From the NCBI GenBank assembly GCA_040753435.1, contig JBFMEN010000003.1, positions 10,916 to 74,915 of the forward strand: 64,000 nucleotides of DNA, given 5' to 3'. Of this stretch, positions 14,777 to 64,000 are shown piece after piece; the first letter of the stretch is position 1; each line of letters opens with the position of its first letter. The position numbers and the translations under genes are program-made. The DNA comes from Candidatus Omnitrophota bacterium. Lineage in GTDB: Bacteria; Omnitrophota; Gorgyraeia; Zapsychrales; JANLHA01. The notes beneath the pieces are model-generated. The model had not been told where the DNA came from and searched no databases. It was given only the letters and a program-made list of their open reading frames with translations.

Positions 14777-15322
14777 TCAAGCTCTTCATATAATGTAAAG
14801 GTTTTTAATGGTAAGGCTATTGGAAGTTTCTGCCTTTTTTAGACTATTTTCATCATCGACGTGAAATATTGATGCGGGTAAAGGGAAAAATGTTGATAAA
14901 AAGGGGAAATTGGACCTTGTCTGACTAAGGGCGGAATATAGAATAAAATCAGAAAGCAAAAAAAGATATCCGTTAGACATGGTCGTGTATGAAATTAATC
15001 AACTGGAAGAAAACAACAAAGGAAAAAACCGGTTTGATACGGAAAAGCTTTTTACCGGTTTTTCCGTTATTTAATTTTATCGATATCTTTGAAGGCTTTC
15101 CTGACGATAATTTCGATATGCCCGGTAATGAATTTTTTTATCATAGCGTCAGGTTGACCGGCCTTAGCCGGAGTATCATTCCCATTGTAATCATTTTCAT
15201 CAATCTTGATTTCACCCATTTTAAAAACGAACGTTGTCTTTTTTGTGAAAGATAGCTGGTTGGCGTTCCGGCAGGAAAGAGGGCTGGTGTTTAATAATTT
15301 CGCGAATAAAATCTGGCAGTTC

Positions 15323-26936: not shown

Positions 26937-28841
26937 ATGTTTCGTGTCCTTTCGAATGCTCTATTCTTGCCAATGCTGTTGATAATGCTTTCTGGAACGG
27001 CGCTTCCTCTTCCGGAAGAGGAAAAATTGGTCTATGGCGAAGCCACATTTGACCGTTCGGGAAAGGTTTTTACGGTCAATCAGAACAGCAGCCAGCTGAT
27101 CGTTAATTACAATCGTTTCTGGATCGGCAAGTCGGAGACAGTGAGGTTCAATCAGCCCGGTATTTCCAGTGTTGTTTTAAACAGGGTGACTGGTTCAAGC
27201 CCTTCAAATATTTTCGGAACACTCTCCGCCAATGGTCAGGTCTTTCTTGTCAATCCGAACGGGATTGTGTTTGGAAGAAACGCCACGGTTGACGTCGGAG
27301 GACTTGTCGCCTCGACTTTGAAGATTTCCAACGATGATTTTAAAAACGGCAATTATGTTTTTACTGGCCGCAGCGGAACGATCGGGAATTTCGGAACGAT
27401 TCAATCCCGTGCGGGAGGATATGTGGCCCTTTTATCGCCGCAAATAAAAAACGGAGGTTCTGTGGTCGCGACCCTGGGAAGGGTAGTTCTGGCGTCAGGA
27501 GAGAGGATTACCCTTGGTCTCGATTCCGGGAATTTGATCGGTGTCGCCGTTAACGAAGAAGTCACTAAAAGCCTGGCTGCTGCAGATGCCGCCATTGAAA
27601 ATTTCGGCAGTGTTAAATCTGACGGTGGCAAGGTTATTCTGACCGCCAAGACACTTAACACGGTTTTTGATCATGCCATTAATAATGACGGGATCATTGA
27701 AGCAAACGGTTTTGGGGATCACGACGGGGAAATTCTGCTGCTGGCCGACAATGATATTACAGTTGGGGGACGCCTTGAAGCGGCGGGAGATATCCGGATC
27801 ATTTCCACCGAAGGGAACGTCGTGCATCAATTAAGTTTTATCGAAGGCGATTTAAACGGAGATGTGATCACCGGATCCGGTTTTTATGGGTCTGCTGGTA
27901 ACGATTATGTCCTGAAGAACGGAATCATGATCAGCAGTCCCTACGAGACTTTTGATATTTCGGCCGGGAACAATGTGATCATCGGCTCGGATGGAGAGGA
28001 TGCCATCAGTGTTCTTCAATGGGGATATGGGTCAGGAGACCGCGGGTTTAAATTACGGGAGGTCGGTTATTATACTACAGAGAGCGGCAGAATTTTTTAT
28101 CATCCCCTTATGATCAGCGATGATATCGGAAAAGACGGGGCCCTCATGGGGGGCGCTCGCTCGGTTTATGGCGAACCGGGATTTGAATTTTATGTCACGT
28201 TTCTTGATTATATGGCGAAGCCGCTAACCTTTTTTAGTGAAATGGCATTGAACAAGAAAGGGTTGGATCATGAGAACAGGATTGGAGATCAGTCTATTTG
28301 GGAGGATGGCGGCGACAACGATTTTAATGATGCCCAACTTGTTTTTGTGACAGAAACTTTCAAGGTGTCTGCTTCGCCGCAAATTCCCAAACCGCCAGCC
28401 CCGCCTGATCCTCCTGAACCGCCTGATCCTCCCGAACCGCCTGATCCTCCTGAACCGCCTGATCCTCCCGAACCGCCTGATCCTCCCGAACCGCCTGATC
28501 CTCCTGAACCGCCTGATCCCCCTGAACCGCCTGATCCTCCTGAACCGCCTGATCCTCCTGAGCCTCCGGATATTCCAGAAATTCCTGCCGCCGGTTCCGT
28601 TGACTCTTTGCTTCGAAAAGGGAAAGAATATTCGGATAACTTTTCTGTTTATTATGAAATTCTTTTTCCAAGTCAATTCCTGAGTTTTGAACCGGTTGCT
28701 GCAGTCGGACTTTACGCGTATCATCCATTGACTTTGGTGGATGAGAGCGCCTTTGACAATATTAGACTTGATATCGATGCCTATGAATTCGTTGAAGATC
28801 AAATTAGAAAGAAAAGGTTTTCTCCTTATTTTGGAGAATAA
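26937..28841 (+). CDS. TPS-domain (hemagglutination-activity domain) secreted protein with a (PEPPDP)n spacer: a short TpsA-like exoprotein
   Basis: Signal peptide, then NYNRFWIGKSETVRFNQPG..SVVLNRVTGSSPSNIFGTLSANGQVFLVNPNGIVFG. These are the classic NxxGI..N.F..F / NPNGI motifs of two-partner-secretion TpsA N-termini. A beta-helix-like G/N-rich body follows, then 12 copies of PEPPDP and a C-terminal ~90-aa domain. Confidence 0.75.
   Translation: MFRVLSNALFLPMLLIMLSGTALPLPEEEKLVYGEATFDRSGKVFTVNQNSSQLIVNYNRFWIGKSETVRFNQPGISSVVLNRVTGSSPSNIFGTLSANGQVFLVNPNGIVFGRNATVDVGGLVASTLKISNDDFKNGNYVFTGRSGTIGNFGTIQSRAGGYVALLSPQIKNGGSVVATLGRVVLASGERITLGLDSGNLIGVAVNEEVTKSLAAADAAIENFGSVKSDGGKVILTAKTLNTVFDHAINNDGIIEANGFGDHDGEILLLADNDITVGGRLEAAGDIRIISTEGNVVHQLSFIEGDLNGDVITGSGFYGSAGNDYVLKNGIMISSPYETFDISAGNNVIIGSDGEDAISVLQWGYGSGDRGFKLREVGYYTTESGRIFYHPLMISDDIGKDGALMGGARSVYGEPGFEFYVTFLDYMAKPLTFFSEMALNKKGLDHENRIGDQSIWEDGGDNDFNDAQLVFVTETFKVSASPQIPKPPAPPDPPEPPDPPEPPDPPEPPDPPEPPDPPEPPDPPEPPDPPEPPDPPEPPDPPEPPDIPEIPAAGSVDSLLRKGKEYSDNFSVYYEILFPSQFLSFEPVAAVGLYAYHPLTLVDESAFDNIRLDIDAYEFVEDQIRKKRFSPYFGE
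28390..28570 (+). repeat. 18-bp in-frame tandem repeat (ccgcctgatcctcctgaa), about 10-12 copies encoding (PEPPDP)n
   Basis: Read directly in the sequence; third-position variants (cct/ccc) occur between copies. Confidence 0.85.
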
Positions 28842-38693: not shown

Positions 38694-38726
38694 CAGCTCC
38701 AGCCTAAAGGCTGGAGCTTTTTTTTG
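38694..38726. terminator. Bidirectional intrinsic terminator between greA (+) and the convergent membrane-protein gene (-)
   Basis: agctccagcctaaaggctggagct perfect hairpin followed by tttttttt, with an A-rich tract on the other side. Confidence 0.6.
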
Positions 38727-40020
38727 GAATGACGGAGAGGGAAATCCAGAGGATGAGAGCTGGGGCAAGGGCCATCAGGATTCTGTTGAGCGAAACAGCC
38801 AGCCACCATTCAATTTCAAAATAAGTGTTGACCCAATAATAAAAGATAACGATAAGCATATAGGCAATAACGGGTAAAACGAAAACATATTCTTTGAATA
38901 CTTTTTTAAAATTCAGCAGGGCTGCGGCTAACAGCAGAAACCACAGGAATCCCCATTTTAACCGGGTTATTTCAATAATAAAAAAACCCAGAATGATTTT
39001 GAGCCTTAACAGCGTTGATGGGTTCGATGATGAGGCCAGTCCGTTTATGAAGGTTTGGTTGCCCGGCGACAAAAATAACTGGAACAAAATGGATGGAAGA
39101 CCGGCGATCAGGGCGGCCGGCAGGAATAAAAATGCTTTTTCCTTCCAATCTTTATTTTTAAAAATAAAAGTCATGGCGACGGTGAAGGTTAGGCCGGCGA
39201 GGATTGTTCCTTCTGGTTTTATGAAGCTTAATATGCCGGTAAAGATGCCGGAAAAAATCAGAAATACATTTAATGATGTAAACGCCAGATAAAGGCTTCC
39301 CAAAGCAGCGAGCAGATACAGCCCAAGGAAAATATCCGCGTACTGACTGACGGCCAGGGTCATGAAGAAAGGAATGGTAAACAAGAACAGCGCTGGTATC
39401 CAGGAGAGTAAAGCCTGCATTCGCTTTCGTTGAAGAAAACCGAAAATAAAAAGCGATGTCAATGAACAGGAAAGAATGCTGTTCCAAAAAGGAATAAACC
39501 AGGGGGTATCCTTTGAAAAGGACCATGTCCAGACGTTCCACAAAGGAATGGCCAGCGGATAATGGGGACTGGAGCGCCACAGTTCCGGAGCGAAGAGTTC
39601 TTTCCATCGAGAACCTGAGAGCAGCAAAAATTTTGCTTTAAAATTCCATACCTGCCAGGCATCCCAGCCTCCGTCAGGATGATTCTTGGCAAAGATGAAT
39701 GATATAGTCCCTGTAATCAAAAGGATGAGCAGCGCGGGCACTAATTCTGAGAGAAAATAAGTTTTTTCGGGAAGCCCGGAGGTTTTGAGCGTTTTTGGGA
39801 CCAGAAGTCCGATGATCAGACCATGGGACATCAGGGTAAATAAAAGATTAAATGTATTGAAGAAGACAAAGCTGAAAAAACAGATAAAAATACTGATGCT
39901 GATTCCTGAAAGCAGAGAGAGCCCCAGAAAAAGTGAAAATGGTAACGCGGTATCCTTTAAAAATTTTTTAACGATTAGCGTTCCGGCGCAGAGAGATAAG
40001 AGATAAGGGATGATTTGCAT
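38704..40020 (-). CDS. Large polytopic membrane protein (hypothetical; possibly glycosyltransferase-39/DUF2079-like)
   Basis: 438 aa with more than 10 predicted TM helices. Confidence 0.5.
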   Translation of the reverse strand: MQIIPYLLSLCAGTLIVKKFLKDTALPFSLFLGLSLLSGISISIFICFFSFVFFNTFNLLFTLMSHGLIIGLLVPKTLKTSGLPEKTYFLSELVPALLILLITGTISFIFAKNHPDGGWDAWQVWNFKAKFLLLSGSRWKELFAPELWRSSPHYPLAIPLWNVWTWSFSKDTPWFIPFWNSILSCSLTSLFIFGFLQRKRMQALLSWIPALFLFTIPFFMTLAVSQYADIFLGLYLLAALGSLYLAFTSLNVFLIFSGIFTGILSFIKPEGTILAGLTFTVAMTFIFKNKDWKEKAFLFLPAALIAGLPSILFQLFLSPGNQTFINGLASSSNPSTLLRLKIILGFFIIEITRLKWGFLWFLLLAAALLNFKKVFKEYVFVLPVIAYMLIVIFYYWVNTYFEIEWWLAVSLNRILMALAPALILWISLSVIPKKSSSL

Positions 40021-53710: not shown

Positions 53711-53805
53711 TGGTTATAAATTATAAAAGCCGAAAAGATTGAGATCAGGGCGAAAAATATATATAACTATTTTATTTATAACAAGATAAGTCGTTTTTCA
53801 TAAAA

Positions 53806-56800
53806 TTGAGAAAAATTAACTGTTTAAAATTTCATGCTGCGGGAAAGGCCCTGACCTGTTTTTTGGCTTTTTCCTTTGTGTTTAATCCTGTTATTGGGTA
53901 TGCCCAGATTGGATTAAACCCGTCATCTTCCCCAGTTCTTCCTGTTCCAGGAGCCATGGTTCCTTTGAGCGGCGCTTTTGACCCGGCCATCATCAATGGG
54001 ATAAAGATATTTCCCGATAATCCTTTTCGATTAGAGTTTCTTATTGGTTCAGGACAATCGGAATTGGAAGGGGATGACTTCAGGGAAGAGTCTAAAAAGC
54101 TTGTTCGGTATTTTTTGGCTTCATTGACTGTTCCCGACAAGGAACTCTGGGTCAACTTATCGCCCTATGAAAGAGATCGTATTATACCCGAAGCCTTTGG
54201 TATTACTGAAATGGGCCGGGATTTGCTGGCCCAGGATTATTTATTGAAACAGGTAACGGCTTCGCTGATGTATCCGGACGGGTCTCCAGGCAAAGAATTC
54301 TGGCTCCGGGTTTCCGCGAAGGCTTATGAACAATATGGGGTCACCGATGTTCCCGTTGACCTGTTTAACAGAGTATGGGTCTTGCCCGACAGGGCGGTTG
54401 TTTATGAGCAGGGAGATACTGCTTTTGTGATTGAGAGCCGTTTAAAGGTGATGCTGGATTCGGATTACGAAGCCATGCAGGGTTCCCAAGAGCCCAAGAG
54501 CCCAAGTTCCAAAGAAAAAGATTTTACATGGGCACATGGGCACATGGGCACATGGGAACTTGACTCCGGAGAGCTTTCGAAACAAATCGTTCGCGAGGTC
54601 ATCCTTCCCGAAATCGAACGAGAAGTCAACGAAGGAAAAAATTTCGCCCCGTTGCGCCAGATTTACAATTCAATGATACTCGCCACATGGTTTAAACGAA
54701 GTCTGCGGGAAGGTTTGTTGAACAAAATTTATGTCGGAAAGAACAAGATTGAAGGGGTTGATATTAGTGACAAACAGGCCAAAGAGAAGATCTACCAGCG
54801 GTACCTGGAGGCATTCCAGGAAGGGGTTTATAACCTGGTTAAAGAAGAGTATGATCCTGTTCTAAAAGAGATTGTTCCAAAGAGATACACATCCGGAGGA
54901 ATGGAATTCGGGTTGCGGCTGGATCAAACGGTCAAGAATGTCACCAGTCTGTCTTCAGCGCAGTCCAAAGATTTCGCAATGCTGGTTAAAGACAAGGGGA
55001 TCAGGAAGGTTTCCGTTGATCTGGAAAGGTCCGCAAAGACAATCCCTGCTCTAAGTTATGCTATTTATCAAGATGCGGAATATATCAACGGAAGGATTGA
55101 GGGGGGAAGATTATTTCGTCCGGGAGGGGCAAAAGATATTTTTGAATTACGCGTGCACTTGGACGAAACGCCTTTGGATTTCTCTGGGGTTGTTAAAATG
55201 ATCCTTCCGAAAGACGGAACGTTAACTATGTTCGGAAAGGGATATTGGCAGGGTTGGGAGGAATACCGCGGCGAGCCGGTAATTATTGTTATAAACAACA
55301 GAAACGTGGTTGAAGTTTATAATTCACAAAATCAAAAGATTTTCCCATTCGGAAAAAATATTATTTATCCCGGAGGAACGTACCGGAATGGAAAAGTCAA
55401 TGGAACTCCGTTTAACCCGCATGGAGCAAGGACAAAAGTTACGATTAAAGACTATATCGGTGAAAACCCGGAATTCACCGGTGTTATCCACAGAGTTCAG
55501 CTCAATAATCATGGCGGGTTGCCTTCCATGGAATATCTGGGGGTCAAATGGGCTAATATGAGCGGCTATGAAAACGCCTTTGTTACGATCGTAGTCGAAA
55601 AAGGCCGGGCTACGGCGATCTATGATGCGAGCGGGAAACAGATCTTCCCTTTCCCCCATAATTATGTCCATTTTGGGGCTCAATACAAAGACGGAAAAAT
55701 TACCGGCGGCGTTTTGGCAACCCCGCACGGGATTTCCAGCCGTTACGAATTGAACAAGTTGTTATCAGCCGCGAGAAAAAAAGATCCCGGCATGTCCTGT
55801 GTCGTCGAAAAGGTGCCGCTGAATGATAAAGGAGGGCTGACGTATTTCCTGGGGGTCGGCAAGTATTGGGCAGATAAGGCGGGATACGAAAAGGCCCTTG
55901 TTACGATTGTCGTTACTAACGGAGATGAGATTACGGTTTATGATGAGAGAGGAAAGAAGATTTTCGAAAGACTGCGGAAGGAAGAAAATTTCGTTTACTT
56001 AAATGCTCGATATGAGGAGGGGAAAATCGTCGGAGGCACGCTTCTCAATGAACGGGGAACTTTTGACCGGCGGGAGTTAAATAAAATCGTGGCGCCGCAT
56101 CCCGGGTTTACCGGGGTCATTGACAAGGTCCGCTTGTCGTTTAATGGCGGGTTGGTGAAATTTCTTGGAAAAAATGTTTGGATGGGGATGACGGAATATG
56201 CCTATCAGATGGTCACAGTTGTTATGGCCGATGGGGAAGTGACGGAAGTTTATGACAGGAGCAACGAGCCAATATATCCGTTTAAAGAGAATTTTATATA
56301 CAAAGGCGCCCGTTTGGAGAAAGGGAAAATTATCGGGGGAGAACTTGTCAATCCCCAGGGGTTTCTGGACAAAACGTTTATTGGGAAGTATCTGAATGAA
56401 CCGGAAAATGAGGATTTTACGGGAGTTATTGAGACAAGGCTGCTGTTTGATGGAGGACTTCCCGTGGGTTTAGAGGAACCCGGATGGTCGTTACAGACGG
56501 AATATAAGCATAAATTTGTTTTTATAGTGAAAGAAAAAGGGAAGACAGTCGGAATTTATGATGAGGAAGGAACTAGATTATTTCCTTATGACGCAAATTT
56601 TGTTTATTGGAACGCTGATTTTATTGATCGGGAGATTAAGGGAGGAAAGCTCCTGACCCCGGCAGGGGTGAGAACCCGTAAGAATTTAAATGAACTGCTT
56701 GCTGAATATCCGGATTTTACAGGGATTATTACGAAGCTGCCGTTTCACGATTCAGGACGGCTCGGTCAAGTGAAAGATGGAATCTATCTTGACTATGTTT

Positions 56801-59800
56801 CGGCTATTCGTGGGAAGAAAGTGACGGTTAAGCTTGTCAAGGGAGCGGTTGTCGCGATTTACGATGAACGCGGATTTATGGTGTGGTCGGAAAACCGGGA
56901 GAGCGTCGGATTTGATATTTTGAATAGTCTATGGAAGTCGGGGGACCTTCAAAAGTTACTGGAACTTTTCGGTGAAGAGGGAACAAATCGTCTCTTGTTC
57001 TCTTTTTTTGATGATTTGACGCCGAAAAGTTTGATAGACTTTTTTCGGGATTACAGGAGTTTTGGGGTCCGGAAGAAGTTTCGGAAAAAGAAGTATGAAG
57101 AAACATTGAAGCCTTCGGAAATTGTTAAAAAGCTGGGCGCGATCGGCCTGCTTCAGAAACAATCCTCAAAGGCCGACTTTCAGGAAGTTTTACGGCAGCA
57201 GTTATTTTCGCTTGTCTATAGTTCTATTGTACGGGACTATAAATTCATCGATGCGATCGAAAAGGAGGTTAAGAGGAATTCGTTTGATCCGGTTATTAAA
57301 AATGCTTTTGAAGAGGTTATCCGCACTTACAGAGATCTGGGAAATTTTCATGTTGAAGGGATTCGATCCCCTACTCAATTAAGATTTTATCAAAAGCGCG
57401 GAGTCAAGTTTATTCTGGACGCTAAACGAGTTCTCCTGTCTGATCAATCGGGGTTGGGAAAAACTTTACAGGCCTTGACGGCGGCGGTTAATGCTTATGA
57501 TGGAAAAGGCGGGAAAAAGATTCTTATTATCTGTCCGGACGTATCCATCCGTAATACGTGGATTAAGGATATTCAACGTCATTTAAAAGGTGAACAGAAA
57601 ATTTATGTTGTCGGCAGCAAAGCAGACTTTAATTCGATTAAAAAACGGAACGATGCCAGGGACGCAAGGTTTATTATTGCCAATTATGAGGTTTTAAGAG
57701 GGGAAGATGCCGCCGGTCTCAGGCAGAATATAAAGGATTTGGGGATTGATTTTATTATTGCTGATGAGGGGCACAGGATTAAGAACAATTCCCAGCTGAC
57801 TGAGGCGGTCCAGGAGTTCCACGCTCCGTACCAGGTCCTGATCAGCGCTTCCGCCCAGCAGGGAAGGACGATTGCCAAAATTTTTAACCTGCTGAATTGG
57901 CTTTATCCGGAAAGGTATCCGGACAGAAAGGAATTCTTGCGGAAGTACGGTAATGCTGAGGGATACTGGCAGTTGAAGTCTGAAATGAGAGGCTTTATGC
58001 TGCGGAGACATAAATCAGACGTCCTGGCGGACATGCCGGAAATTAACGTGGAGTTTCTTCCCGTGCAGCTTAAAGGCGAACAACTGCGTTTATATCAAGA
58101 GATTGAGAAGGAGTTTGATGAGATTACTGAATCGGGTGATTATCTGCGAATGGGGGGAGTGATCCTGAATTTGATTCGAGTGGCGCTGGATACAGCCTTG
58201 ATCAGAGATATCTTTTTAAAAGATTTAGACGCTCAGGAAATTATTCCGGTTAAAGTGGGAGGGTATTACGGAAGAGTCGGAGACGTGGAATACAGGTTCT
58301 CCTTTTCATTTAAAGATCCGGTTTTTTCTTATACTGATTCATCAGGGAAGAAATATTCTATGAAGGTGAGGGATGGGGACATTGTTCAGATGGGTGGACG
58401 AACGTATGAAATAGGAATTAAGGAAAGAAAATCGGTTTCAGCGAAGTATGAGGCCCTTGACCGTATGGTCGATGACATTGTCGGTGAAAAAAAAGAAAGC
58501 ATGGTGGTTTTTACCGGCGCGCGAAAGGCTGTTTCTTATTTAAAGCAACGATATGAAAAAGAAGGATACGAAGTGGTCGGCATTGATGGAGATGTCAGCG
58601 CGAAAGCAAGGGAAGATATTCTGAAAAAGTTTAATACGGCCGGGAGACCGATTATCCTTGTTTGTACCTATCAAACATTGGGTGAATCCATTGATATTAC
58701 CGGAGCGCATTACGGGGTCTTGCTGGACAGCCCATGGCTTGACCGCGAACAGATCATGGACCGGCTGCATCGATTGGGGCAGCTGCATGATGTCTTGTTT
58801 ACGATTATTGTTGCAAAAGACACCGTCGATGAACATGTAGAGCAGGTCAATATGGAAAGCGATATGATCAAGAGCATTGTTCTTGATAACCTTAATGTTT
58901 ATAACAGGCAAAAGGAATTGAGCAAAAGATTAATTTTGGAGAAAGTCAGAAATAAAGAACTTTATTCCCAACTTAGAAGATTTCAAGAGAAGGTCCGGTT
59001 AATTGGAAGCGACGTGGAGAAAAAGGCCCGATCGGCAAGACTTTTGACTGAATATAAAAAAGGCAATCTGAGCGTTCTTTACGGAAACCATCGTTTCGCT
59101 GCAGAACTTGAAAATATAAACGGGGAGACCGTTTATCTTGACGGCCTTTTGGAGCTTGTGAATATGGTGAAGGATCTAAGTGCCGATTCAAAGAATGCGT
59201 TAAAAGAATTTTTCATTCAACGTTTTAAAGACGAGAGGCAGAAAGATGTCAGGGTTAAAGATATGATCCTGTGGGATATTTGCAATCAAATTATCCCCGG
59301 TTTTATTAATATCGATTATGACGGAAAATTGGAGTTTATGATTGAATGGGGAACTTATATATTAAGAAGGCTGATCGTTAACCCTGACCTCAGTAAGGAA
59401 GAGTTGATGACAGGATTGGGGGATGAAGCCGGAGACCTTTTTAATGACACCATGCATCTTCTCGACACATCGAATATCCTGAAGTTATTTTCTCTGATGA
59501 CGGTCATCCCTCAATCCTATTATTATGAGGGAGAGCTTCTCAGGTATGAACCGGCGATCTCTGTTTATTACGCGAATGGAAGAATCAGGTACTGGGATCA
59601 ACAGATCGTCGATAACATTGCGCCGGGATGGCAGATCAGCGACGGTGAGATTTATTCGGGAATAGAGGGGATTGAGCGGGAAGGCCGGCGGGTCCGGGCT
59701 CTGGAAGAATCAGAGGAGAAGCGTCTGGCCAATCAGATACGGCTGGGGAACAAGGCGGCGGAAAATCTTCTGGTGCGGGCGTATTTCCGAAATTTGAAAC

Positions 59801-60558
59801 CGATCGCGAAACGGGTCATCGAGAGCGGAAAGCTGGAGAAGGCATTCGGTTTAAAAGTCGCCGGTGTTGTGGATTTGGAAAGCCTGGTTTCCGCCGGGGA
59901 AGAGGCATTGGTAGATTTGATTAATGTCTACTCAGAGCACGAGATCTATTACAATACGCCGCTTAAAGATTTTCTCCGGAAACGGTTGAATCCGAGAATG
60001 TATTCGCTCGGGTTTCAGATAGCGGAAGAGATGTCCAGGTCGGTCGACCCTGAAGAATATTATCGAAGCGAATTGCTGAGCGAAGATCCTGTCGACCCAG
60101 GTAATTTGGAAGTGGGTGAACAAAAGAAAATTTTTGCCGGTCTGCTTGAACGGGAAGGTTTTAGCGATATAGAAGCTGAGATGATCATGCTTTTTGTTTT
60201 TGAAGGTTATTCGGAGAAGGAGTTGCTGGAAGAATACTTTCAAAACGGTTTAAGGGATCCGAGCGAACAGGACATACGGTATGTGGAGAATCTTATTGCC
60301 AGCTTTCAACATAAAATGAATGTTTTGGGCAAGGAAAACCTCCTTAATATTCTTGATGAAGGGCTTCCTGTTGATGAGGATGTGGGAGGTATCAATCTTG
60401 ATCCGGCGATCTTGAATATCGAGACCCGTGGCAGCGGTTTGGAGAAAGGCTTTTCCGATATTGATATGACACTGTTTGACGACTCTTCTTTCGCGGGATT
60501 TATTCCTGTGATTATCGACATTGCTCCTGCGAATTTATCAGGGTTTATAGCAAATTAG
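53806..60558 (+). CDS. Giant (2250 aa) multi-domain protein. It has a signal peptide, a conserved about 370-aa N-terminal domain shared with the downstream paralog, 6-7 novel ~90-aa tandem repeats, an SNF2-family helicase (DEXH ATPase plus helicase-C) and a C-terminal sigma-70/ECF-like region 2 plus region 4 module
   Basis: TTG start. Signal-like ..CFLAFSFVFNPVIGYA. N-terminal domain LVRYFLASLTVPDKELWVNLSPYERDRIIP...TWELDSGELSKQIVREVILPEIEREVNEGKNFAPLRQIYNSMILATWFK. Repeats carry V.V.D..G..I(F/Y)PF..N.VY..A.Y..GKI.GG.L..P.G...R.ELNK.....P.FTGVI.K. SNF2 motifs SDQSGLGKTLQAL (motif I), IIADEGHRIKN (motif II), LLDSPW..EQIMDRLHRLGQ (motif VI). C-terminal LGNKAAENLLVRAYFRNLKPIAKRV (sigma region 2.1-2.2-like) and AEMIMLFVFEGYSEKELLEEYF (region 4-like). 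Confidence 0.85.
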   Translation: MRKINCLKFHAAGKALTCFLAFSFVFNPVIGYAQIGLNPSSSPVLPVPGAMVPLSGAFDPAIINGIKIFPDNPFRLEFLIGSGQSELEGDDFREESKKLVRYFLASLTVPDKELWVNLSPYERDRIIPEAFGITEMGRDLLAQDYLLKQVTASLMYPDGSPGKEFWLRVSAKAYEQYGVTDVPVDLFNRVWVLPDRAVVYEQGDTAFVIESRLKVMLDSDYEAMQGSQEPKSPSSKEKDFTWAHGHMGTWELDSGELSKQIVREVILPEIEREVNEGKNFAPLRQIYNSMILATWFKRSLREGLLNKIYVGKNKIEGVDISDKQAKEKIYQRYLEAFQEGVYNLVKEEYDPVLKEIVPKRYTSGGMEFGLRLDQTVKNVTSLSSAQSKDFAMLVKDKGIRKVSVDLERSAKTIPALSYAIYQDAEYINGRIEGGRLFRPGGAKDIFELRVHLDETPLDFSGVVKMILPKDGTLTMFGKGYWQGWEEYRGEPVIIVINNRNVVEVYNSQNQKIFPFGKNIIYPGGTYRNGKVNGTPFNPHGARTKVTIKDYIGENPEFTGVIHRVQLNNHGGLPSMEYLGVKWANMSGYENAFVTIVVEKGRATAIYDASGKQIFPFPHNYVHFGAQYKDGKITGGVLATPHGISSRYELNKLLSAARKKDPGMSCVVEKVPLNDKGGLTYFLGVGKYWADKAGYEKALVTIVVTNGDEITVYDERGKKIFERLRKEENFVYLNARYEEGKIVGGTLLNERGTFDRRELNKIVAPHPGFTGVIDKVRLSFNGGLVKFLGKNVWMGMTEYAYQMVTVVMADGEVTEVYDRSNEPIYPFKENFIYKGARLEKGKIIGGELVNPQGFLDKTFIGKYLNEPENEDFTGVIETRLLFDGGLPVGLEEPGWSLQTEYKHKFVFIVKEKGKTVGIYDEEGTRLFPYDANFVYWNADFIDREIKGGKLLTPAGVRTRKNLNELLAEYPDFTGIITKLPFHDSGRLGQVKDGIYLDYVSAIRGKKVTVKLVKGAVVAIYDERGFMVWSENRESVGFDILNSLWKSGDLQKLLELFGEEGTNRLLFSFFDDLTPKSLIDFFRDYRSFGVRKKFRKKKYEETLKPSEIVKKLGAIGLLQKQSSKADFQEVLRQQLFSLVYSSIVRDYKFIDAIEKEVKRNSFDPVIKNAFEEVIRTYRDLGNFHVEGIRSPTQLRFYQKRGVKFILDAKRVLLSDQSGLGKTLQALTAAVNAYDGKGGKKILIICPDVSIRNTWIKDIQRHLKGEQKIYVVGSKADFNSIKKRNDARDARFIIANYEVLRGEDAAGLRQNIKDLGIDFIIADEGHRIKNNSQLTEAVQEFHAPYQVLISASAQQGRTIAKIFNLLNWLYPERYPDRKEFLRKYGNAEGYWQLKSEMRGFMLRRHKSDVLADMPEINVEFLPVQLKGEQLRLYQEIEKEFDEITESGDYLRMGGVILNLIRVALDTALIRDIFLKDLDAQEIIPVKVGGYYGRVGDVEYRFSFSFKDPVFSYTDSSGKKYSMKVRDGDIVQMGGRTYEIGIKERKSVSAKYEALDRMVDDIVGEKKESMVVFTGARKAVSYLKQRYEKEGYEVVGIDGDVSAKAREDILKKFNTAGRPIILVCTYQTLGESIDITGAHYGVLLDSPWLDREQIMDRLHRLGQLHDVLFTIIVAKDTVDEHVEQVNMESDMIKSIVLDNLNVYNRQKELSKRLILEKVRNKELYSQLRRFQEKVRLIGSDVEKKARSARLLTEYKKGNLSVLYGNHRFAAELENINGETVYLDGLLELVNMVKDLSADSKNALKEFFIQRFKDERQKDVRVKDMILWDICNQIIPGFINIDYDGKLEFMIEWGTYILRRLIVNPDLSKEELMTGLGDEAGDLFNDTMHLLDTSNILKLFSLMTVIPQSYYYEGELLRYEPAISVYYANGRIRYWDQQIVDNIAPGWQISDGEIYSGIEGIEREGRRVRALEESEEKRLANQIRLGNKAAENLLVRAYFRNLKPIAKRVIESGKLEKAFGLKVAGVVDLESLVSAGEEALVDLINVYSEHEIYYNTPLKDFLRKRLNPRMYSLGFQIAEEMSRSVDPEEYYRSELLSEDPVDPGNLEVGEQKKIFAGLLEREGFSDIEAEMIMLFVFEGYSEKELLEEYFQNGLRDPSEQDIRYVENLIASFQHKMNVLGKENLLNILDEGLPVDEDVGGINLDPAILNIETRGSGLEKGFSDIDMTLFDDSSFAGFIPVIIDIAPANLSGFIAN
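55270..56900 (+). repeat. Six to seven diverged tandem repeats of about 270 bp (~90 aa each) inside the giant gene
   Basis: The recurrent protein pattern (..T.VYD..G..IFPF..NFVY..A.Y..GKI.GG.L..P.G...R.ELNK.....P.FTGVI.KV.L...GGL..) was read from the translation. DNA identity between units is low, so the repeats are ancient. Confidence 0.6.
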
Positions 60559-60639: not shown

Positions 60640-63600
60640 ATGAACCAAACGATTACAAAGAACCATTTCAGTACCTGCATCCGTGTCATTTCCAGCTTTC
60701 TTGTTGTCACATTTCTCACAACGACAGTCTTGCCTCCGGGATACGCCCAGACCATCGGCTTGAGTCTTCCGGTTCCCGGCGCCATGGTCGGTCAGAGCCA
60801 GGCGTTTGTTCCGGCGCTTTTAAAAGGCATGACCGTTTATCCCGATAATCCTTTGCAGTTTGATTTCATTATTGATTCAGGACACGAAAAGCTTAAAGAG
60901 CCGGAGCTTAAAAAAGAATCCGGGCGGCTGGTGAAATATTTTCTGGCTTCGATGACAGTTCCGCAAAATGACCTGTGGGTCAATTTATCGCCGAATGAAA
61001 AAGACCGGATTATTCCGGATGAACTGGGCAAAACCGAACTCGGGCGTGATTTGCTGGCGCAGGATTATATTTTGAAGCAATTGACCGCGACCATGATGTA
61101 TCCGGAGGAAGAGCTGGGCAAAAAATTCTGGGAGCGCGTGCGAAAAATCGCGAAGGAGAAATACGGCATTACTGAAATCCCGACGGATACGTTTAACAAG
61201 GTCTGGATCCTTCCCGAAACAGCCATGGTTTATGAATATGAGAATACAGTTTACATTACTGATGCGCATTTGAAGGTGATGCTCGATAGCGATTACGAAG
61301 CGATGCAGCAGAAGGGTGCCCAGGAGCCCAAGAGCCCAGGTTCCCAAGTAAAAGATTTTACTTGGGCACATGGGAACGTGGGCACATGGGAACTTGATTC
61401 CGGTGAACTTTCGAAACAAGTTATTCGAGAAGTCATCCTTCCCCAAATCGAAAAAGAAGTCAATGAAGGAAAGAACTTCGCCACTCTGCGCCAGATCTAC
61501 CATTCGCTCATTCTCGCCAAGTGGTACAAACAAACCGTAAAGAACAGCATCATGTCGCAGGTCTACATCGATCAGAACAAGACCGCCGGCATCGAGATCA
61601 ATGATCCTGCGATGAAGGAGACGATTTACGACCGCTACATGCAGGCCTACAAAAAAGGTGTGTTCAACTATATCAAGGAAGACTACGACGAGCTGAGCCA
61701 GACGGTTATTCCGCGTCAGTATTTTTCGGGTGGTTTCAAAGACTCGGCCATGGTCGTTGAAAAGTCCGACAACACCTTTAAGGTTGCGAAGAGTGAAGTG
61801 GGGGCGGAATACCGCTCTCGCGTCATTGTCAGGCCGACAGCGGCAGCAATTGTTTTCGATGATGATAAATTTTTTCCTGCTCTTTCCAGGCGTTTTGTTC
61901 ATCTGGTTCTGGCGCCCGTTTCTTTGGCAATTTTAGGGGCGGTTCTTTTTATTGCCGTCCCGGGAGAGAACCTGTCGTTTGCCCAACCCGCATCAAGCCC
62001 GACGGTGGAAGCTGTTTCAGAGATTTCAAAATCACTGGATACAGTTCGCCAGGCGAAGATCGACGTCGCGCAGGATGATTATGGATATGAATATTTAATC
62101 ATTAACTTGTCATTTGCGGCTCCGGAAATAGGCGTTAGAAGGCCGGGCTGGAACGTCATCCCGCTGCAAGACAATAAAGTTTTTAAGACTGATCAGGCGG
62201 TGGATCAGTTGTTGCTCCACAAGAACGATCCCCGGGCCGCGTCAGGAATTCTTGAAGCGGCCGGGTTTAACACCCATGCCATGATGGCAGCGGCAAAACT
62301 TGACGAAAAAGACAGGGCCGGCCTTATTCCGATTCTTCATCAAAATTTAAAAAACAGCAGCGATATTATCGTTGAAGGCGCGCTTAAGGCATTGTCTGAA
62401 TTCGATAGCGCGAGTTTGCGATCAGTGGTGCCGGAGTTGCTTAACTTGCTGAACCGGCATAATCCCGGAATAAGGTTAGAAGTCATGAGTTTGATTTTTT
62501 CCAAGGATCTTCAAACATCCGATCCTGATAAATTTGCTTTGGAACTGGCCAAACTGATGAATACGGAACAAGATCATACTGTTTTAGCGGCCGATTGGCT
62601 CGGAGTCGAAAATTATTCCCGGGCCGAACGTCAGGGGAAAATTCCCCAGGTCATGGAGATTGTCGATTCGCTGGAAAGAGAGACGCGCATCATTGCCGCT
62701 TATATCGCCGGAAAGTTGGGGACGAAAGCAAATGGATCTGTTGACGGCTTGATCAGGAATCTTTCGAGTAAAGATGCCGGTCTTCAGCTGATCTCTGCTC
62801 AAAGTCTCGGGAAAATCGGCCCACTTGCCGAGAAGGCCCTTCCCAAACTTGAGGAGATCATGAATACGGCGGGTTATGAAGCGGAACCAAAAAGGGCGGC
62901 CGGGACGGCTTATAAAAGAATTAAGAATATCCCGCTTGATCCGGGAGAGGATAAGGAGACTTCGCCCAGGACGCTTTCCTTTTTCAAAGAAGACGATCAG
63001 GCGATGCTGGCTGCCGATACGGTTGATCTTAAAGAAGTGCTGGCAATGCTTCCCCGGGAACTCAGGGTTGGCAGAAATTCCCGGCGATCAATAGATTTGC
63101 GTTTAATAAGTCCGGATGAGTGGAATGATTTATATCCGCAAGCGACAAACGGTATTTTGTTTCAGGATTTTCAGTCTTCTAGAGGCGGACAGCCGCAGGG
63201 CGACGGGGTTATGAAAATTTCTATCCGGGACGATGTTACCGCGAAGGCCTTTCTTCAGGAGTTTGCCGGACAGGGGCTGCACCGGCGTCTGGGTCTTGAG
63301 GATGAGGGGCTCTTGAAATTAATTGATGAGGTCAGGACCGAGCCGGATCATATCGCGGATACGTTATTTGTTCTCGATGAGGAAATTCAGGGCGTACGCG
63401 CGGAATTAAAAGGCCATGACCGAAAAAAGAGAGAGACGTACTTGCAGTCCCTGCTTCAACGAAGAGAAGATTTGCGTTTGTCTTTGAAGCGGGCCGTTGA
63501 GAAAGCAACGACCGATCCTCAGATTGTCGTGGCGGTGGATGGATCGGGTTTTGACGATGATCATGACAAAAATGGAGGGGCTGAAAGAATTTATGGAATC

Positions 63601-64000
63601 GGGGGAATGATGAAAATTTTTTCCGCCGCGGCGGCTTCGGCCCTGGCGTCTTTTTTCTTTTCTTTTGAGACCGGGGTTATTACCGGGGTTGTCTCCCCGG
63701 GGGCGGGTATTCAATCAATCGCAAAAGGAATGGGGCCAGCTGTTGTAAGTGTTACATATAACGATATTATCAATCAGACACCGGAAGCTGTCGCAGTTTT
63801 TCATGAGCTTGCCGGGAAAGGGGAAATATCAGGACTGGGGCTGATGCTTCAGGACGGATTTGATGTTAATGCGACGAACGATGACGGAGAAACAGCGCTG
63901 ATAACGGCCATTAACCGGCGGCAGGTTGAAACCGTAAAATTTCTTCTTGAGCAAGGCGGTAGTCCTGAGCCCGCCGCGATTAAGTTGGCGGTCGCAAATA
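60640..64000 (+). CDS. Second giant-gene paralog, with more than 1120 aa inside the window and its 3' end beyond it. It has a signal peptide, the same conserved N-terminal domain, a transmembrane helix, HEAT/ARM-like repeats and a C-terminal ankyrin repeat
   Basis: ATG at 60640 with an AAAAGAGGG RBS. The N-terminal about 370 aa are roughly 60-65% identical to the 53806 product (..KYFLASMTVPQNDLWVNLSPNEKDRIIPDELG.. / ..TWELDSGELSKQVIREVILPQIEKEVNEGKNFATLRQIY..). The TM helix is FVHLVLAPVSLAILGAVLFIAVPG (61885..61965). HEAT-like units read LIPILHQNLKNSSDIIVEGALKAL, VPELLNLLNRHNPGIRLEVMSL, GLIRNLSSKDAGLQLISAQSLGKIG. The ankyrin unit is DGETALITAINRRQVETVKFLLEQGG. There is no in-frame stop to the window end. 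Confidence 0.8.
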   Translation, partial: MNQTITKNHFSTCIRVISSFLVVTFLTTTVLPPGYAQTIGLSLPVPGAMVGQSQAFVPALLKGMTVYPDNPLQFDFIIDSGHEKLKEPELKKESGRLVKYFLASMTVPQNDLWVNLSPNEKDRIIPDELGKTELGRDLLAQDYILKQLTATMMYPEEELGKKFWERVRKIAKEKYGITEIPTDTFNKVWILPETAMVYEYENTVYITDAHLKVMLDSDYEAMQQKGAQEPKSPGSQVKDFTWAHGNVGTWELDSGELSKQVIREVILPQIEKEVNEGKNFATLRQIYHSLILAKWYKQTVKNSIMSQVYIDQNKTAGIEINDPAMKETIYDRYMQAYKKGVFNYIKEDYDELSQTVIPRQYFSGGFKDSAMVVEKSDNTFKVAKSEVGAEYRSRVIVRPTAAAIVFDDDKFFPALSRRFVHLVLAPVSLAILGAVLFIAVPGENLSFAQPASSPTVEAVSEISKSLDTVRQAKIDVAQDDYGYEYLIINLSFAAPEIGVRRPGWNVIPLQDNKVFKTDQAVDQLLLHKNDPRAASGILEAAGFNTHAMMAAAKLDEKDRAGLIPILHQNLKNSSDIIVEGALKALSEFDSASLRSVVPELLNLLNRHNPGIRLEVMSLIFSKDLQTSDPDKFALELAKLMNTEQDHTVLAADWLGVENYSRAERQGKIPQVMEIVDSLERETRIIAAYIAGKLGTKANGSVDGLIRNLSSKDAGLQLISAQSLGKIGPLAEKALPKLEEIMNTAGYEAEPKRAAGTAYKRIKNIPLDPGEDKETSPRTLSFFKEDDQAMLAADTVDLKEVLAMLPRELRVGRNSRRSIDLRLISPDEWNDLYPQATNGILFQDFQSSRGGQPQGDGVMKISIRDDVTAKAFLQEFAGQGLHRRLGLEDEGLLKLIDEVRTEPDHIADTLFVLDEEIQGVRAELKGHDRKKRETYLQSLLQRREDLRLSLKRAVEKATTDPQIVVAVDGSGFDDDHDKNGGAERIYGIGGMMKIFSAAAASALASFFFSFETGVITGVVSPGAGIQSIAKGMGPAVVSVTYNDIINQTPEAVAVFHELAGKGEISGLGLMLQDGFDVNATNDDGETALITAINRRQVETVKFLLEQGGSPEPAAIKLAVAN

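What the first reader, a model, noticed from the sequence alone, without database searches (positions are those of the whole stretch)
53806..60558. Giant secreted-type protein embedding an SNF2 helicase and a sigma-factor-like module
A single 6.75-kb ORF encodes 2250 aa. Because it begins with a signal-like N-terminus, it unexpectedly combines an apparently extracytoplasmic N-terminal domain and repeat stalk with cytoplasmic-type nucleic-acid machinery.
- aa 1-33: signal-like N-terminus.
- aa 34 to about 400: a conserved domain of unknown function, duplicated in the next gene.
- about aa 490-1030: six to seven novel ~90-aa repeats.
- about aa 1190-1680: a complete SNF2/Swi2-type DEXH ATPase plus helicase-C module.
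- The last about 300 aa: similar to sigma-70/ECF region 2 and region 4.
Possible explanations are a polymorphic toxin or effector delivering a DNA-remodelling payload to another cell, a surface-tethered nucleic-acid-handling machine, or a lineage-specific fusion. Giant genes of this kind have been described in Omnitrophota-like episymbiotic or predatory bacteria. This looks like an uncharacterised member with a distinct domain set.
Basis: partly seen in the sequence, partly recalled or inferred. Interest (0 to 1): 0.9.

Follow-up and report, generated by a model that had tools for sequence, protein, structure and literature searches.

The report
Signal-tagged SNF2–sigma fusion in Omnitrophota
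This 2250-residue protein is real: it joins an export-type leader to a DNA-motor ATPase and a sigma-factor-like RNA-polymerase-binding module, and it belongs to a large, unannotated Omnitrophota family that hangs cytoplasm-type enzymes between the same N-terminal domain and C-terminal motif.

Summary
ORF 53806..60558 (+) encodes 2250 aa:
- a Sec-type signal-like leader (aa 1-33);
- a ~340-aa domain repeated in the next gene;
- six ~100-aa repeats;
- an SNF2 ATPase with intact motifs (Pfam 3e-35);
- a sigma-70-like module. Pfam misses it, but hhalign against E. coli sigma factors gives 92% probability, E 6e-7, from region 1.2 to region 4.2.

Independent assemblies carry full-length orthologues, so it is not a chimera.

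The leader, the N-domain and a ~55-aa C-terminal motif (GGIDL…GFxPVIxxIxP) define a family of at least 8,300 clusters at 50% identity. It was seen only in Omnitrophota-type MAGs, often in tandem arrays. The cargo between the two ends is almost entirely cytoplasm-type: kinases, PGK, PGI, methyltransferases, response regulators, ankyrin. Neither the N-domain nor the C-motif matches Pfam, NCBIfam or PDB.

Best reading (confidence about 0.4): an exported or delivered effector whose sigma-like module docks on a bacterial RNA polymerase while the SNF2 motor remodels it.

Main rival: a RapA-like factor acting in the producer's own cytoplasm.

Export, delivery and target are all inferred.

The parts
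53806..53904 (+). Signal-peptide-like leader, aa 1-33: basic n-region, hydrophobic core, 'GYA|Q' site. TTG start.
   Evidence: Read from the sequence. The same n-h-c layout and positive-inside charge bias occur in 118 of 120 relatives, and an 'AQ' site in 107 of 120. No SignalP-type predictor was available.
53905..54930 (+). Family N-domain, aa 34-375 (motifs LPxPGxMV, WVNLSPxExDRIxP, GRDLLAQDYxLKQ, RKYFSGG). Fold and function unknown.
54949..56952 (+). Repeat region: a degenerate partial copy (aa 382-451) plus six ~100-aa repeats (aa 456-1049). Consensus PDFTGVI..V.L...GGL…VTIV..G.V..VYDE.G..IFPF..NFVY.GA.Y..GKI.GG.L.
   Evidence: Alignment A1. An HMM of the repeat finds 7 stretches in the query and 3-13 in orthologues P0002-P0008 only. 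Weak Pfam ArlS_N hit, 1.5e-6.
56953..57372 (+). Linker between the repeats and the ATPase, aa 1050-1189. No family match.
   Evidence: No significant Pfam hit (protein 4). Conserved among orthologues.
57373..58875 (+). SNF2/Swi2-type ATPase core, aa 1190-1690: motif I GLGKT (1216-1220), motif II DEGH (1320-1323), motif VI RLHRLGQ (1653-1659). An insertion of ~100 aa separates the two lobes.
   Evidence: Pfam SNF2-rel_dom 3.4e-35 and Helicase_C 1e-13. The motif residues are invariant in eight orthologues. NCBIfam and PADLOC hits cover the core only.
59038..59613 (+). Conserved alpha/beta domain of unknown function, aa 1745-1936 (IDYDGxLEF, YYYEGxLLxY, IAPGW).
   Evidence: Invariant columns in orthologues. 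AlphaFold pLDDT about 80-90 over this part. No family match.
59614..60357 (+). Sigma-70-like module, aa ~1937-2184: equivalents of region 1.2, 2.1-2.4 and 4.2 joined by a short acidic linker, with no region 3.
   Evidence: Profile against PDB: SigA E 1.7e-6, about 23 of 25 matches sigma factors. hhalign against E. coli sigmas: 92.3%, E 5.7e-7, 229 columns. Foldseek top hits are sigma factors, E 0.01-0.2, probability up to 1.0. The region-2.3 tryptophan pair aligns with D-F.
60373..60558 (+). Family C-terminal motif, aa 2190-2250 (VGGINLDP…36 aa…GFIPVIIDIAP), followed by the stop codon.
   Evidence: Both halves of the motif are present in 111 of 120 relatives, 8-89 aa from the C-terminus and never internal. 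Alignment A5. No PDB match. AlphaFold confidence is low here.
60640..64000 (+). Tandem paralogue (= P0012, 1412 aa, runs off the window): leader, N-domain, a transmembrane-like segment at aa 422-440, then HEAT/ankyrin cargo.
   Evidence: Translation. tblastn 57% identity. Precomputed Pfam PF12796/PF13637/PF13646. Hydropathy.

Best explanation
Shown. This is a single, genuine gene of an Omnitrophota bacterium and one member of a very large phylum-restricted family. The family has a fixed frame:
- a Sec-type signal-like leader ending in ..YA|Q;
- a ~340-aa N-domain of unknown fold;
- a ~55-aa C-terminal motif (GGIDLNP…GFxPVIxxIxPxxNLPxLLG).
Between the two ends sits a swappable cargo. Here the cargo is six beta-rich repeats, an SNF2 ATPase whose catalytic motifs are intact, a conserved alpha/beta domain, and a two-domain sigma-70-like module (region 1.2/2 plus region 4).

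Inferred mechanism.
1. The leader sends the protein through Sec, and signal peptidase I cuts after A33.
2. The N-domain, perhaps together with the C-motif, acts as the common handle for a later envelope step: anchoring at the outer membrane, crossing it, or hand-over to another cell.
3. The cargo works in an ATP- and RNA-polymerase-containing compartment, that is, the cytoplasm of a bacterial host or prey cell.
4. There the sigma-like module docks on RNA polymerase core as sigma region 2 and region 4 do (beta' clamp helices and beta flap). The SNF2 motor translocates on DNA to dislodge or remodel the polymerase, as RapA does. The result would be to shut down or redirect the target's transcription.
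5. The sigma-like module has lost the tryptophan pair that melts the -10 element. It therefore looks like a polymerase-docking device rather than a working initiation factor.
For: Real gene. The ORF is uninterrupted. Eight full-length proteins from independent assemblies share every module, and an independent JGI contig carries a 2457-aa orthologous ORF.

Leader. 118 of 120 relatives have the n-h-c layout with positive-inside bias: net charge +3.3 on the N-flank against +0.1 on the C-flank, with the N-flank higher in 116. 107 of 120 have a conserved AQ site. 200 of 226 have no strong hydrophobic segment downstream, so by the standard rule the whole chain is translocated.

Family frame.
- The N-domain is 41-62% identical across unrelated cargos.
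- There are 8,314 clusters at E<=1e-3, and the domain is N-terminal in all of the best 150.
- The C-motif is present in 111 of 120.

Cargo.
- It is almost entirely cytoplasm-type, and partly of the kind seen in effectors (as I recall): HATPase_c, Pkinase, PP2C, UbiB, PGK, PGI, PGM, methyltransferases, Response_reg, HTH, DnaJ, ankyrin, HEAT, WD40.
- Family genes sit in tandem arrays with different cargos, both here and in L083/L084.

SNF2 and sigma. The SNF2 core scores above the Pfam cut-offs and its motifs are invariant in orthologues. The sigma-like module is supported by a profile search, by profile-profile comparison and by fold search.

Biological setting. Omnitrophota are reported as ultra-small, host-dependent or predatory bacteria (PMC10066038). 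RNA of the predator Velamenicoccus archaeovorus has been seen inside dead prey cells (PMC13153191). RapA is an SNF2 ATPase that removes RNA polymerase from DNA (abstracts listed).
Against: - No experiment supports any step. Export is inferred from hydropathy, charge and motif rules, not from a trained predictor.
- The TTG start has no Shine-Dalgarno sequence. NCBI starts the gene at ATG 53956, which is preceded by AGGAG. That AGGAG lies inside the conserved PGAM codons.
- No gene scanned in the window is tied to this locus; the only transport-related hits lie 25-44 kb upstream. Nor is any next to orthologue P0008.
- About 5% of family members, including the adjacent paralogue, have a transmembrane-like segment right after the N-domain. 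That would leave their cargo and C-motif in the producer's cytoplasm. So the cargo compartment is not uniform in the family, or the simple topology rule fails.
- A sigma-like dock would not fit archaeal RNA polymerase, and the only documented Omnitrophota prey is an archaeon.
- The N-domain and C-motif match no known secretion signal or fold.
Confidence: 0.4

Rival explanations
1. The protein works in the producer's own cytoplasm as a RapA-like RNA-polymerase-associated remodeller. The sigma-like module tethers the SNF2 motor to the cell's own polymerase. The N-terminal hydrophobic segment is either a membrane tether or is not translated (start at ATG 53956). The shared N- and C-terminal modules serve assembly or regulation rather than export.
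For: - SNF2 and sigma chemistry needs ATP, DNA and RNA polymerase, all of which are cytoplasmic.
- NCBI's gene model starts at ATG 53956, behind an AGGAG.
- The cargos of the whole family are cytoplasm-type.
- The adjacent paralogue and about 5% of members have a transmembrane-like segment after the N-domain, which would put their cargo in the cytoplasm.
- The neighbours are housekeeping genes.
Against: - The 50 codons upstream of ATG 53956 encode a leader with the family's layout and YAQ site. That would not be preserved if untranslated.
- 116 of 118 leaders obey the positive-inside rule for N-in/C-out, and 200 of 226 proteins have no second hydrophobic segment to bring the chain back.
- The RapA NCBIfam model scores 37 bits against a cut-off of 576, and only over the ATPase core.
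Confidence: 0.25
2. The protein is exported but stays with the producer, in the periplasm or on the surface. The N-domain and C-motif anchor it in the envelope and the repeats form a stalk. The SNF2/sigma-like part handles extracellular or incoming nucleic acid, or simply binds ligands without turning over ATP.
For: - Export-type leader.
- A repeat 'stalk' whose copy number varies from 3 to 13 among orthologues, as in surface proteins.
- A moderately hydrophobic C-motif that could insert into or lie on a membrane.
- A diderm envelope with MlaE and a DsbA-like protein encoded in the window.
Against: - As far as is known, no ATP or RNA polymerase is available outside the cytoplasm.
- The ATPase motifs are strictly conserved among orthologues, which argues for catalysis.
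- The family cargos include PGK, PGI, response regulators and HTH proteins, which make little sense on a surface.
Confidence: 0.15
3. It is the SNF2 component of an anti-phage defence system (Zorya ZorD, DISARM DrmD, Dpd DpdE, BREX BrxH-like).
For: PADLOC and NCBIfam models of ZorD, DpdE, DrmD and BrxH match at E 1e-25 to 1e-7.
Against: - All the matches cover only the generic SNF2 core (aa ~1156-1700), and the NCBIfam scores are far below the curated cut-offs (for example ZorD 37 against 1500).
- No partner genes of those systems lie nearby.
- The leader, N-domain, repeats and sigma-like module are foreign to those systems.
Confidence: 0.03
4. The long ORF is an artefact: a chimeric assembly or a frameshift that fuses separate genes.
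For: None found. The sequence is a metagenome-assembled contig, so errors are possible in principle.
Against: Seven further proteins of 2457-2852 aa from ENA, Logan, NCBI and JGI assemblies align over the full length, with invariant columns in every module. L081 carries an intact 2457-aa ORF. P0005 was seen on 5 contigs.
Confidence: 0.02

Closest known systems
RapA/HepA, the bacterial RNA-polymerase-associated Swi2/Snf2 ATPase
   Same: Both have an SNF2-type ATPase core with intact motifs. Both are coupled to a means of engaging RNA polymerase: RapA's own N-terminal domain, here a fused sigma-like module. The expected action is to dislodge or recycle polymerase on DNA.
   Different: The RapA NCBIfam model scores 37 bits against a cut-off of 576 and matches only the core. 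RapA has no signal peptide, no repeats and no sigma-like domain, and it is about 970 aa. Binding to RNA polymerase is inferred here, not shown.
Sigma-70 family factors (two-domain layout as in ECF sigmas, region 1.2 as in groups 1-3)
   Same: Profile-profile alignment runs from region 1.2 through 2.1-2.4 and 4.2 (92% probability, E 6e-7). PDB profile hits and fold hits are sigma factors. The region 2.1/2.2 pattern (EEkRLanq.r.GN.aAee.LV.a.lr.v..IA.r) is kept.
   Different: No Pfam Sigma70_r2, Sigma70_r4 or ECF model matches the query. The region-2.3 tryptophan pair aligns with D-F. Region 3 is replaced by an acidic linker. The module sits at the end of a 2250-aa protein behind an ATPase. It is sigma-like, not demonstrably a sigma factor.
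Modular secreted proteins with a conserved trafficking end and variable cargo (two-partner-secretion TpsA/CdiA, polymorphic toxins, T9SS C-terminal-domain cargo, T1SS LapA-type adhesins)
   Same: The logic is the same: a conserved targeting module or modules with swappable payload, tandem gene arrays, many paralogues per genome, and repeat 'stalks' of variable copy number.
   Different: No TPS domain, T9SS C-terminal domain, RTX or other known trafficking domain matches. The conserved parts are at both ends. The payloads are housekeeping-type cytoplasmic enzymes rather than toxins. No cognate transporter or immunity gene is adjacent.
Omnitrophota giant proteins (Archaeovorin and Dockerin types; bioRxiv 10.1101/2023.11.21.568195 and 10.64898/2026.06.07.730766)
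   Same: Same phylum. The domain repertoire overlaps (HATPase_c, methyltransferase, GNAT, PGM, starch synthase, response regulator, HEAT). Both combine signal or membrane-targeting sequences with cytoplasm-type enzymes.
   Different: Those proteins are over 10-100 kaa, have tens of transmembrane helices and carry SecA_DEAD domains. This one is 2250 aa with one hydrophobic leader and no SecA domain. Neither paper mentions the N-domain or C-motif frame in the passages found.

Membership tests
SNF2/Swi2 family ATPase | SNF2-related N-lobe domain above Pfam's gathering score | tested here: met
   PF00176, 122 bits against 24.9, aa 1195-1442.
SNF2/Swi2 family ATPase | Helicase C-terminal lobe | tested here: met
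   PF00271, 51.9 bits against 23.5, aa 1547-1658.
SNF2/Swi2 family ATPase | Catalytic motifs I (GxGKT), II (DExH) and VI (arginine fingers) intact | tested here: met
   GLGKT 1216-1220, DEGH 1320-1323, RLHRLGQ 1653-1659. The key residues are invariant in 8 orthologues.
Sigma-70 family | Region 2 recognised by the curated Pfam model Sigma70_r2 | tested here: not met
   No hit at E<=10 for the query segment. Among the 8 orthologues only Sigma70_r1_2 at 0.025 and Sigma70_ECF at 0.16.
Sigma-70 family | Profile-level homology to region 1.2/2 of known sigma factors | tested here: met
   hmmsearch of profile A4 against PDB: SigA E 1.7e-6, about 23 of 25 matches sigma factors. hhalign A6 against A8: 92.3%, E 5.7e-7.
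Sigma-70 family | Region 4.2 helix-turn-helix | tested here: inconclusive
   The hhalign alignment extends through region 4.2 to the end of the sigma factors. Foldseek aligns 200-400 columns to whole sigma factors, but at E 0.01-0.2 and low TM-score. There is no Pfam Sigma70_r4 hit.
Sigma-70 family | Conserved aromatic residues of region 2.3 that melt and read the -10 element (the tryptophan pair; recalled from established knowledge) | tested here: not met
   In the hhalign alignment, 'STYATWWIRQ' of RpoS pairs with 'NTPLKDFLRK' of the query: W-W becomes D-F.
Sigma-70 family | Binds RNA polymerase core and directs promoter-specific initiation | not testable with these tools
   Needs biochemistry.
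RapA/HepA | Full-length match to the NCBIfam equivalog PRK04914 | tested here: not met
   37.4 bits against a cut-off of 576; aa 1206-1380 only.
Defence-system SNF2 proteins (ZorD, DrmD, DpdE, BrxH) | Full-length model match plus the system's partner genes nearby | tested here: not met
   Core-only matches, for example ZorD 37 bits against 1500. No partner genes in the window.
Omnitrophota giant proteins (Archaeovorin/Dockerin types) | Length over 10-30 kaa, many transmembrane helices, SecA_DEAD / SecA preprotein-binding domains (as described in the paper read) | tested here: not met
   2250 aa. One N-terminal hydrophobic segment plus the C-motif. No SecA family among the Pfam hits.
Two-partner secretion / T9SS / T1SS cargo | TPS domain, T9SS C-terminal domain, or RTX repeats with a C-terminal signal | tested here: not met
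   No such Pfam hit. The only trace is CHU_C at E 0.13 inside a repeat.
Omnitrophota leader / N-domain / C-motif family (unnamed; defined here) | Signal-like leader with a ..YAQ-type site | tested here: met
   aa 1-33 in the query. 118 of 120 relatives share the layout.
Omnitrophota leader / N-domain / C-motif family (unnamed; defined here) | ~340-aa N-domain directly after the leader | tested here: met
   41-62% identity to 119 relatives. The profile finds 8,314 clusters.
Omnitrophota leader / N-domain / C-motif family (unnamed; defined here) | C-terminal GGIDL…GFxPVIxxIxP motif | tested here: met
   aa 2193-2243: VGGINLDP…GFIPVIIDIAP. 111 of 120 relatives have both halves.

The most novel reading that the evidence does not exclude
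The leader, N-domain and C-terminal motif together form a previously unrecognised, phylum-wide trafficking frame. Omnitrophota would use it to export, and possibly inject into partner cells, a large repertoire (at least 8,300 clusters at 50% identity) of otherwise cytoplasmic enzymes and regulators. The SNF2-sigma protein would be the member that targets the partner's RNA polymerase. If so, this would be a new protein-delivery system. A substantial part of the 'metabolic' genes annotated in Omnitrophota MAGs (PGK, PGI, PGM, kinases) would then be effectors rather than housekeeping enzymes.
Probability: 0.3. Interest if true: 0.9.

Novelty: new variant of a known kind. Interest (0 to 1): 0.72.

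Why it matters
Omnitrophota are abundant, uncultured, ultra-small bacteria thought to live on other cells. How they act on their hosts is unknown.

This gene exposes a family of thousands of proteins that put cytoplasm-type enzymes behind an export-type leader and between two conserved, unannotated modules. That gives three things:
- a concrete, testable candidate for their effector repertoire and its targeting signal;
- a warning that MAG-based metabolic reconstructions may be counting these fusions as ordinary PGK, PGI, PGM or kinases;
- a natural fusion of an SNF2 motor with a sigma-like polymerase dock. If it binds RNA polymerase, it would be a new way of coupling a remodelling ATPase to the bacterial transcription machinery.

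Tried and rejected
1. Pfam and NCBIfam on the whole protein and on segments. Only the SNF2 core is recognised. There is no Sigma70 model, no model for the N-domain or C-motif, and only a weak ArlS_N hit in the repeats.
2. phmmer of the C-terminal 591 aa against PDB found nothing. Only the orthologue profile revealed the sigma factors.
3. The search for homologous proteins with the C-module, once as a single sequence and once as alignment A6, returned no hit at all. Not even the identical P0001 came back. I treat both as technical nulls. Whether the SNF2-sigma C-module exists outside this family is therefore untested.
4. The metagenome scan for the C-module first failed for lack of a conserved stretch. 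With three sequences it gave only two loci, both of the P0002 type.
6. Profiles of the C-motif and the N-domain against PDB gave nothing.
7. PADLOC: the defence reading was rejected.
8. The look-up of encoding contigs for P0001 and P0012 found them not on record, so the contig beyond the window end was not seen.
9. The literature searches found no description of the N-domain/C-motif family or of an SNF2-sigma fusion. The library is incomplete, so absence is not proof.
10. Promoter and terminator scans were no better than shuffled controls. No tRNA or Rfam matches in the window.
Full report
**1. The ORF and its start**

Window 53806..60558 (+) is one uninterrupted ORF of 2250 codons. The frame opens at 53782 after a TAA, and TTG 53806 is the only start codon upstream of the hydrophobic segment.

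The identical protein is in NCBI as 'MAG: DEAD/DEAH box helicase [Candidatus Omnitrophota bacterium]' (P0001, 2200 aa, on a 139,678-bp contig). That model starts at ATG 53956 and therefore lacks the first 50 residues. ATG 53956 is preceded by AGGAG, but those bases are the codons of the conserved family motif P-G-A-M.

The 50 codons upstream encode MRKINCLKFHAAGK-ALTCFLAFSFVF-NPVIGYA|Q. Nearly all relatives have this same layout, so I take TTG 53806 as the start. This is an inference from homology.

**2. Check of each claimed feature**

- *Leader.* 118 of 120 relatives have an N-terminal hydrophobic core. Mean net charge is +3.3 on its N-flank and +0.1 on its C-flank, and the N-flank is the higher in 116. 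107 of 120 have an 'AQ' site, typically ..PPxYAQ. This is the pattern of a Sec signal with a signal-peptidase-I site. No trained predictor was available.
- *N-domain.* aa 34-375 recur in the next gene (start 60640) at 57% identity.
- *Repeats.* There are six copies of about 100 aa at aa 456-1049, plus a degenerate partial copy at aa 382-451.
- *SNF2.* SNF2-rel_dom scores 122 bits and Helicase_C 51.9 bits, both far above their cut-offs. GLGKT, DEGH and RLHRLGQ are invariant among orthologues.
- *Sigma-like module.* The curated models fail on the query, and so does a single-sequence PDB search. Three other tests agree with each other:
  - A profile of the C-terminal module of eight orthologues (A4) hits PDB sigma factors: SigA at E 1.7e-6, and about 23 of 25 listed matches are SigA, RpoS or other sigma chains. 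The alignment covers region 1.2 to region 2.
  - hhalign of A6 against an alignment of E. coli RpoS, RpoH, FliA and RpoD (A8, built) gives 92.3% probability and E 5.7e-7. It aligns 229 columns, from region 1.2 to the end of region 4.2.
  - An AlphaFold model of the module (pLDDT 71, and 80-90 over the first 330 residues) has sigma factors as nearly all of its top Foldseek hits (probability up to 1.0). The E-values are only 0.01-0.2.
  - Region 3 is replaced by an acidic linker. The tryptophan pair of region 2.3 aligns with D-F.
  - My conclusion is 'sigma-like, probably a polymerase-docking module'. I do not call it a sigma factor.

**3. Not an artefact**

P0002-P0008 (2457-2852 aa; from ENA, Logan, NCBI and JGI) align with the query over the full length. 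Every module has invariant columns. An independent JGI contig (L081) holds an intact 2457-aa ORF, and P0005 was seen on five contigs.

The repeats and the C-module occur only in these eight of the 229 family proteins I held. Repeat copy number ranges from 3 to 13.

**4.

The whole-protein search returned more than 2,500 significant hits. Nearly all match only the first 16% or so of the query. They are 1,250-3,800-aa proteins from Omnitrophota MAGs, and their N-domains are 41-62% identical to the query's although the rest is unrelated.

Of the best 120, 111 also share a C-terminal motif: GGIDLNP, about 36 residues, then GFxPVIxxIxPxxNLPxLLG. It lies 8-89 aa from the C-terminus and is never internal. 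The query has it at aa 2193-2243.

An exhaustive profile search of 1.84 billion representatives found 8,314 clusters at 50% identity with E<=1e-3, and 6,702 with E<=1e-30. The domain is N-terminal in all of the best 150.

Nearly all of the best 79 come from MAGs named Omnitrophota or Omnitrophica, or from ENA MAGs labelled 'uncultured Planctomycetales'; one is labelled Candidatus Aceula meridiana and one only 'bacterium'. Several loci come from the same MAG.

Family genes form tandem arrays. There are two in this window. L083/L084 have at least four: PPDK_N cargo, a 108-aa fragment, PTA/acetate-kinase cargo and the SNF2-sigma gene.

Neither the N-domain nor the C-motif has a Pfam, NCBIfam or PDB-sequence match. 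The N-domain model (pLDDT 63, pTM 0.62) has no significant structural neighbour.

**5. The cargo repertoire**

The precomputed Pfam domains of the 120 best hits are almost all cytoplasm-type:

- *Signalling and regulation:* HATPase_c, protein kinase, PP2C, response regulator, GGDEF, XRE- and TetR-type helix-turn-helix domains.
- *Metabolic enzymes:* PGK, PGI, PGM, starch synthase, PfkB, PPDK_N, UDP-glucose pyrophosphorylase.
- *Other enzymes and chaperones:* UbiB/ABC1 with M48 peptidase, SAM methyltransferases, GNAT, SNF2, DnaJ.
- *Repeat scaffolds:* ankyrin, HEAT, TPR, WD40.

No lectins, glycoside hydrolases or Ig-like domains appear. The set overlaps the domain 'modules' reported for the much larger Omnitrophota giant proteins. 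Those proteins are over 10-100 kaa, carry many transmembrane helices and have SecA_DEAD domains. This protein is not one of them.

**6. Topology**

200 of 226 family proteins have no strong hydrophobic segment after the N-domain. By the usual rules the whole chain would then be translocated.

About 5% do have a transmembrane-like segment immediately after the N-domain. The adjacent paralogue P0012 is one of them (aa 422-440). That would leave their cargo and C-motif in the producer's cytoplasm. I cannot reconcile these two sub-architectures, and the point counts against any simple model.

**7. Context**

The genes upstream are ordinary chromosomal genes: a GFO/IDH/MocA oxidoreductase, a hexapeptide transferase, a GT2 glycosyltransferase, SpoU, a PAS-histidine kinase-receiver hybrid, an aminotransferase, a TPR protein and RsmE.

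No secretion apparatus is adjacent here, nor next to P0008. Elsewhere the window encodes a TPS-domain protein, a C39 peptidase, MlaE and a DsbA-like protein. These are consistent with a diderm envelope but are not linked to this gene.

PADLOC matches cover the generic SNF2 core only.

**8. Mechanism**

*Shown:*
- the domain anatomy;
- intact ATPase motifs;
- profile-level sigma homology;
- the family frame;
- the export-type leader pattern.

*Inferred:*
- Sec export and cleavage at A33|Q34;
- a shared post-Sec role for the N-domain and C-motif;
- action of the cargo in another cell's cytoplasm;
- docking of the sigma-like module on RNA polymerase core in the manner of sigma regions 2 and 4 (established knowledge of sigma-70 factors);
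- RapA-like displacement or remodelling of the polymerase by the SNF2 motor (RapA papers listed).

The inference rests on three points. The cargos need ATP and cytoplasmic partners, yet the leaders look exported. Omnitrophota are reported as host-dependent or predatory (PMC10066038). And predator RNA has been seen inside prey cells (PMC13153191).

I give this reading about 0.4. A RapA-like role in the producer's own cytoplasm gets about 0.25, an envelope-retained role about 0.15, a defence system about 0.03 and an artefact about 0.02.

**9. Novelty**

The sequence is public, but it is annotated only as a DEAD/DEAH helicase. In the searchable literature I found no description of the leader/N-domain/C-motif frame or of an SNF2-sigma fusion. 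That library is incomplete.

In logic the protein resembles the modular secreted or polymorphic proteins, and RapA. It meets the defining features of none of them beyond the SNF2 core.

I rate it a new variant of a known kind, with interest 0.72. The stronger reading, a new phylum-wide delivery frame for cytoplasmic enzymes, is not excluded (probability about 0.3).

Noticed in passing
window 60640-64000 (+), runs off the window: The adjacent paralogue (P0012, 1412 aa, HEAT/ankyrin cargo) has a strong transmembrane-like segment (aa 422-440, hydropathy 2.74) right after the N-domain. The query and about 88% of the family lack one. This implies the opposite cargo topology within one family.
   Followed up: partly
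window 54479-54700 and 61313-61534: A 222-nt stretch of the two tandem N-domain genes is 84% identical, against 71-73% for the flanking parts. It covers a lineage-specific insert (…QEPKSP.S..KDFTWAHG..GTWELDSGELSKQ) that is also nearly identical in P0009 from another contig. Possible gene conversion between paralogues.
   Followed up: partly
window 53806-53958: NCBI's gene model starts at ATG 53956 and drops the signal-like leader. The AGGAG before that ATG lies within the conserved P-G-A-M codons, which may mislead gene callers across the family (P0010 and P0045 also look truncated at the same spot).
   Followed up: partly
proteins P0024, P0032, P0044, P0045, P0063, P0072 and others: Family members are named in public records after their cargo alone ('phosphoglycerate kinase', 'glucose-6-phosphate isomerase', 'phosphoglucomutase', 'AarF/UbiB family protein'). 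Metabolic reconstructions of Omnitrophota MAGs may be counting these 1,500-3,000-aa leader-bearing fusions as ordinary glycolytic enzymes.
   Followed up: no
L083 59-16716 and L084 3-16671: A tandem array of at least four family genes with different cargos: PPDK_N (1507 aa), a 108-aa fragment holding only N-domain residues ~19-87, PTA/acetate kinase (1222 aa), SNF2-sigma (2554 aa), and another N-domain gene at the contig end.
   Followed up: partly
C-termini of the 120 relatives: After the C-motif many members have an acidic or proline-rich tail that ends in a short '…(Q/E)(L/V/I)S(x)(x)' motif (for example QLSSV, QVSSIR, EISALN, ELSRL). The SNF2-sigma subgroup, including the query, ends shortly after the C-motif and lacks this tail.
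   Followed up: no
window 26937-28841 (+), 9715-10431 (+), 10371-11699 (+): A TPS-domain (two-partner-secretion TpsA-like) protein of 634 aa. Elsewhere, a stand-alone C39 peptidase overlapping a Phenol_MetA_deg-type (possible outer-membrane barrel) gene. No link to the finding was established.
   Followed up: no
window 5426-8347, 8407-9690, 15206-17542, 19351-20772, 38704-40020(-): Several sizeable ORFs (427-973 aa) have no Pfam match at E<=1e-5.
   Followed up: no
window 22920-24416 (+): An unusual one-protein signalling fusion: receiver domain, AraC-type HTH, HisKA and HATPase_c in a single 498-aa protein.
   Followed up: no
The search for homologous proteins returned no hits for the C-terminal module (aa 1690-2185 or alignment A6). 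Even the identical P0001 was not recovered. The word-based candidate step seems to fail for this region, so those nulls carry no information.
   Followed up: yes
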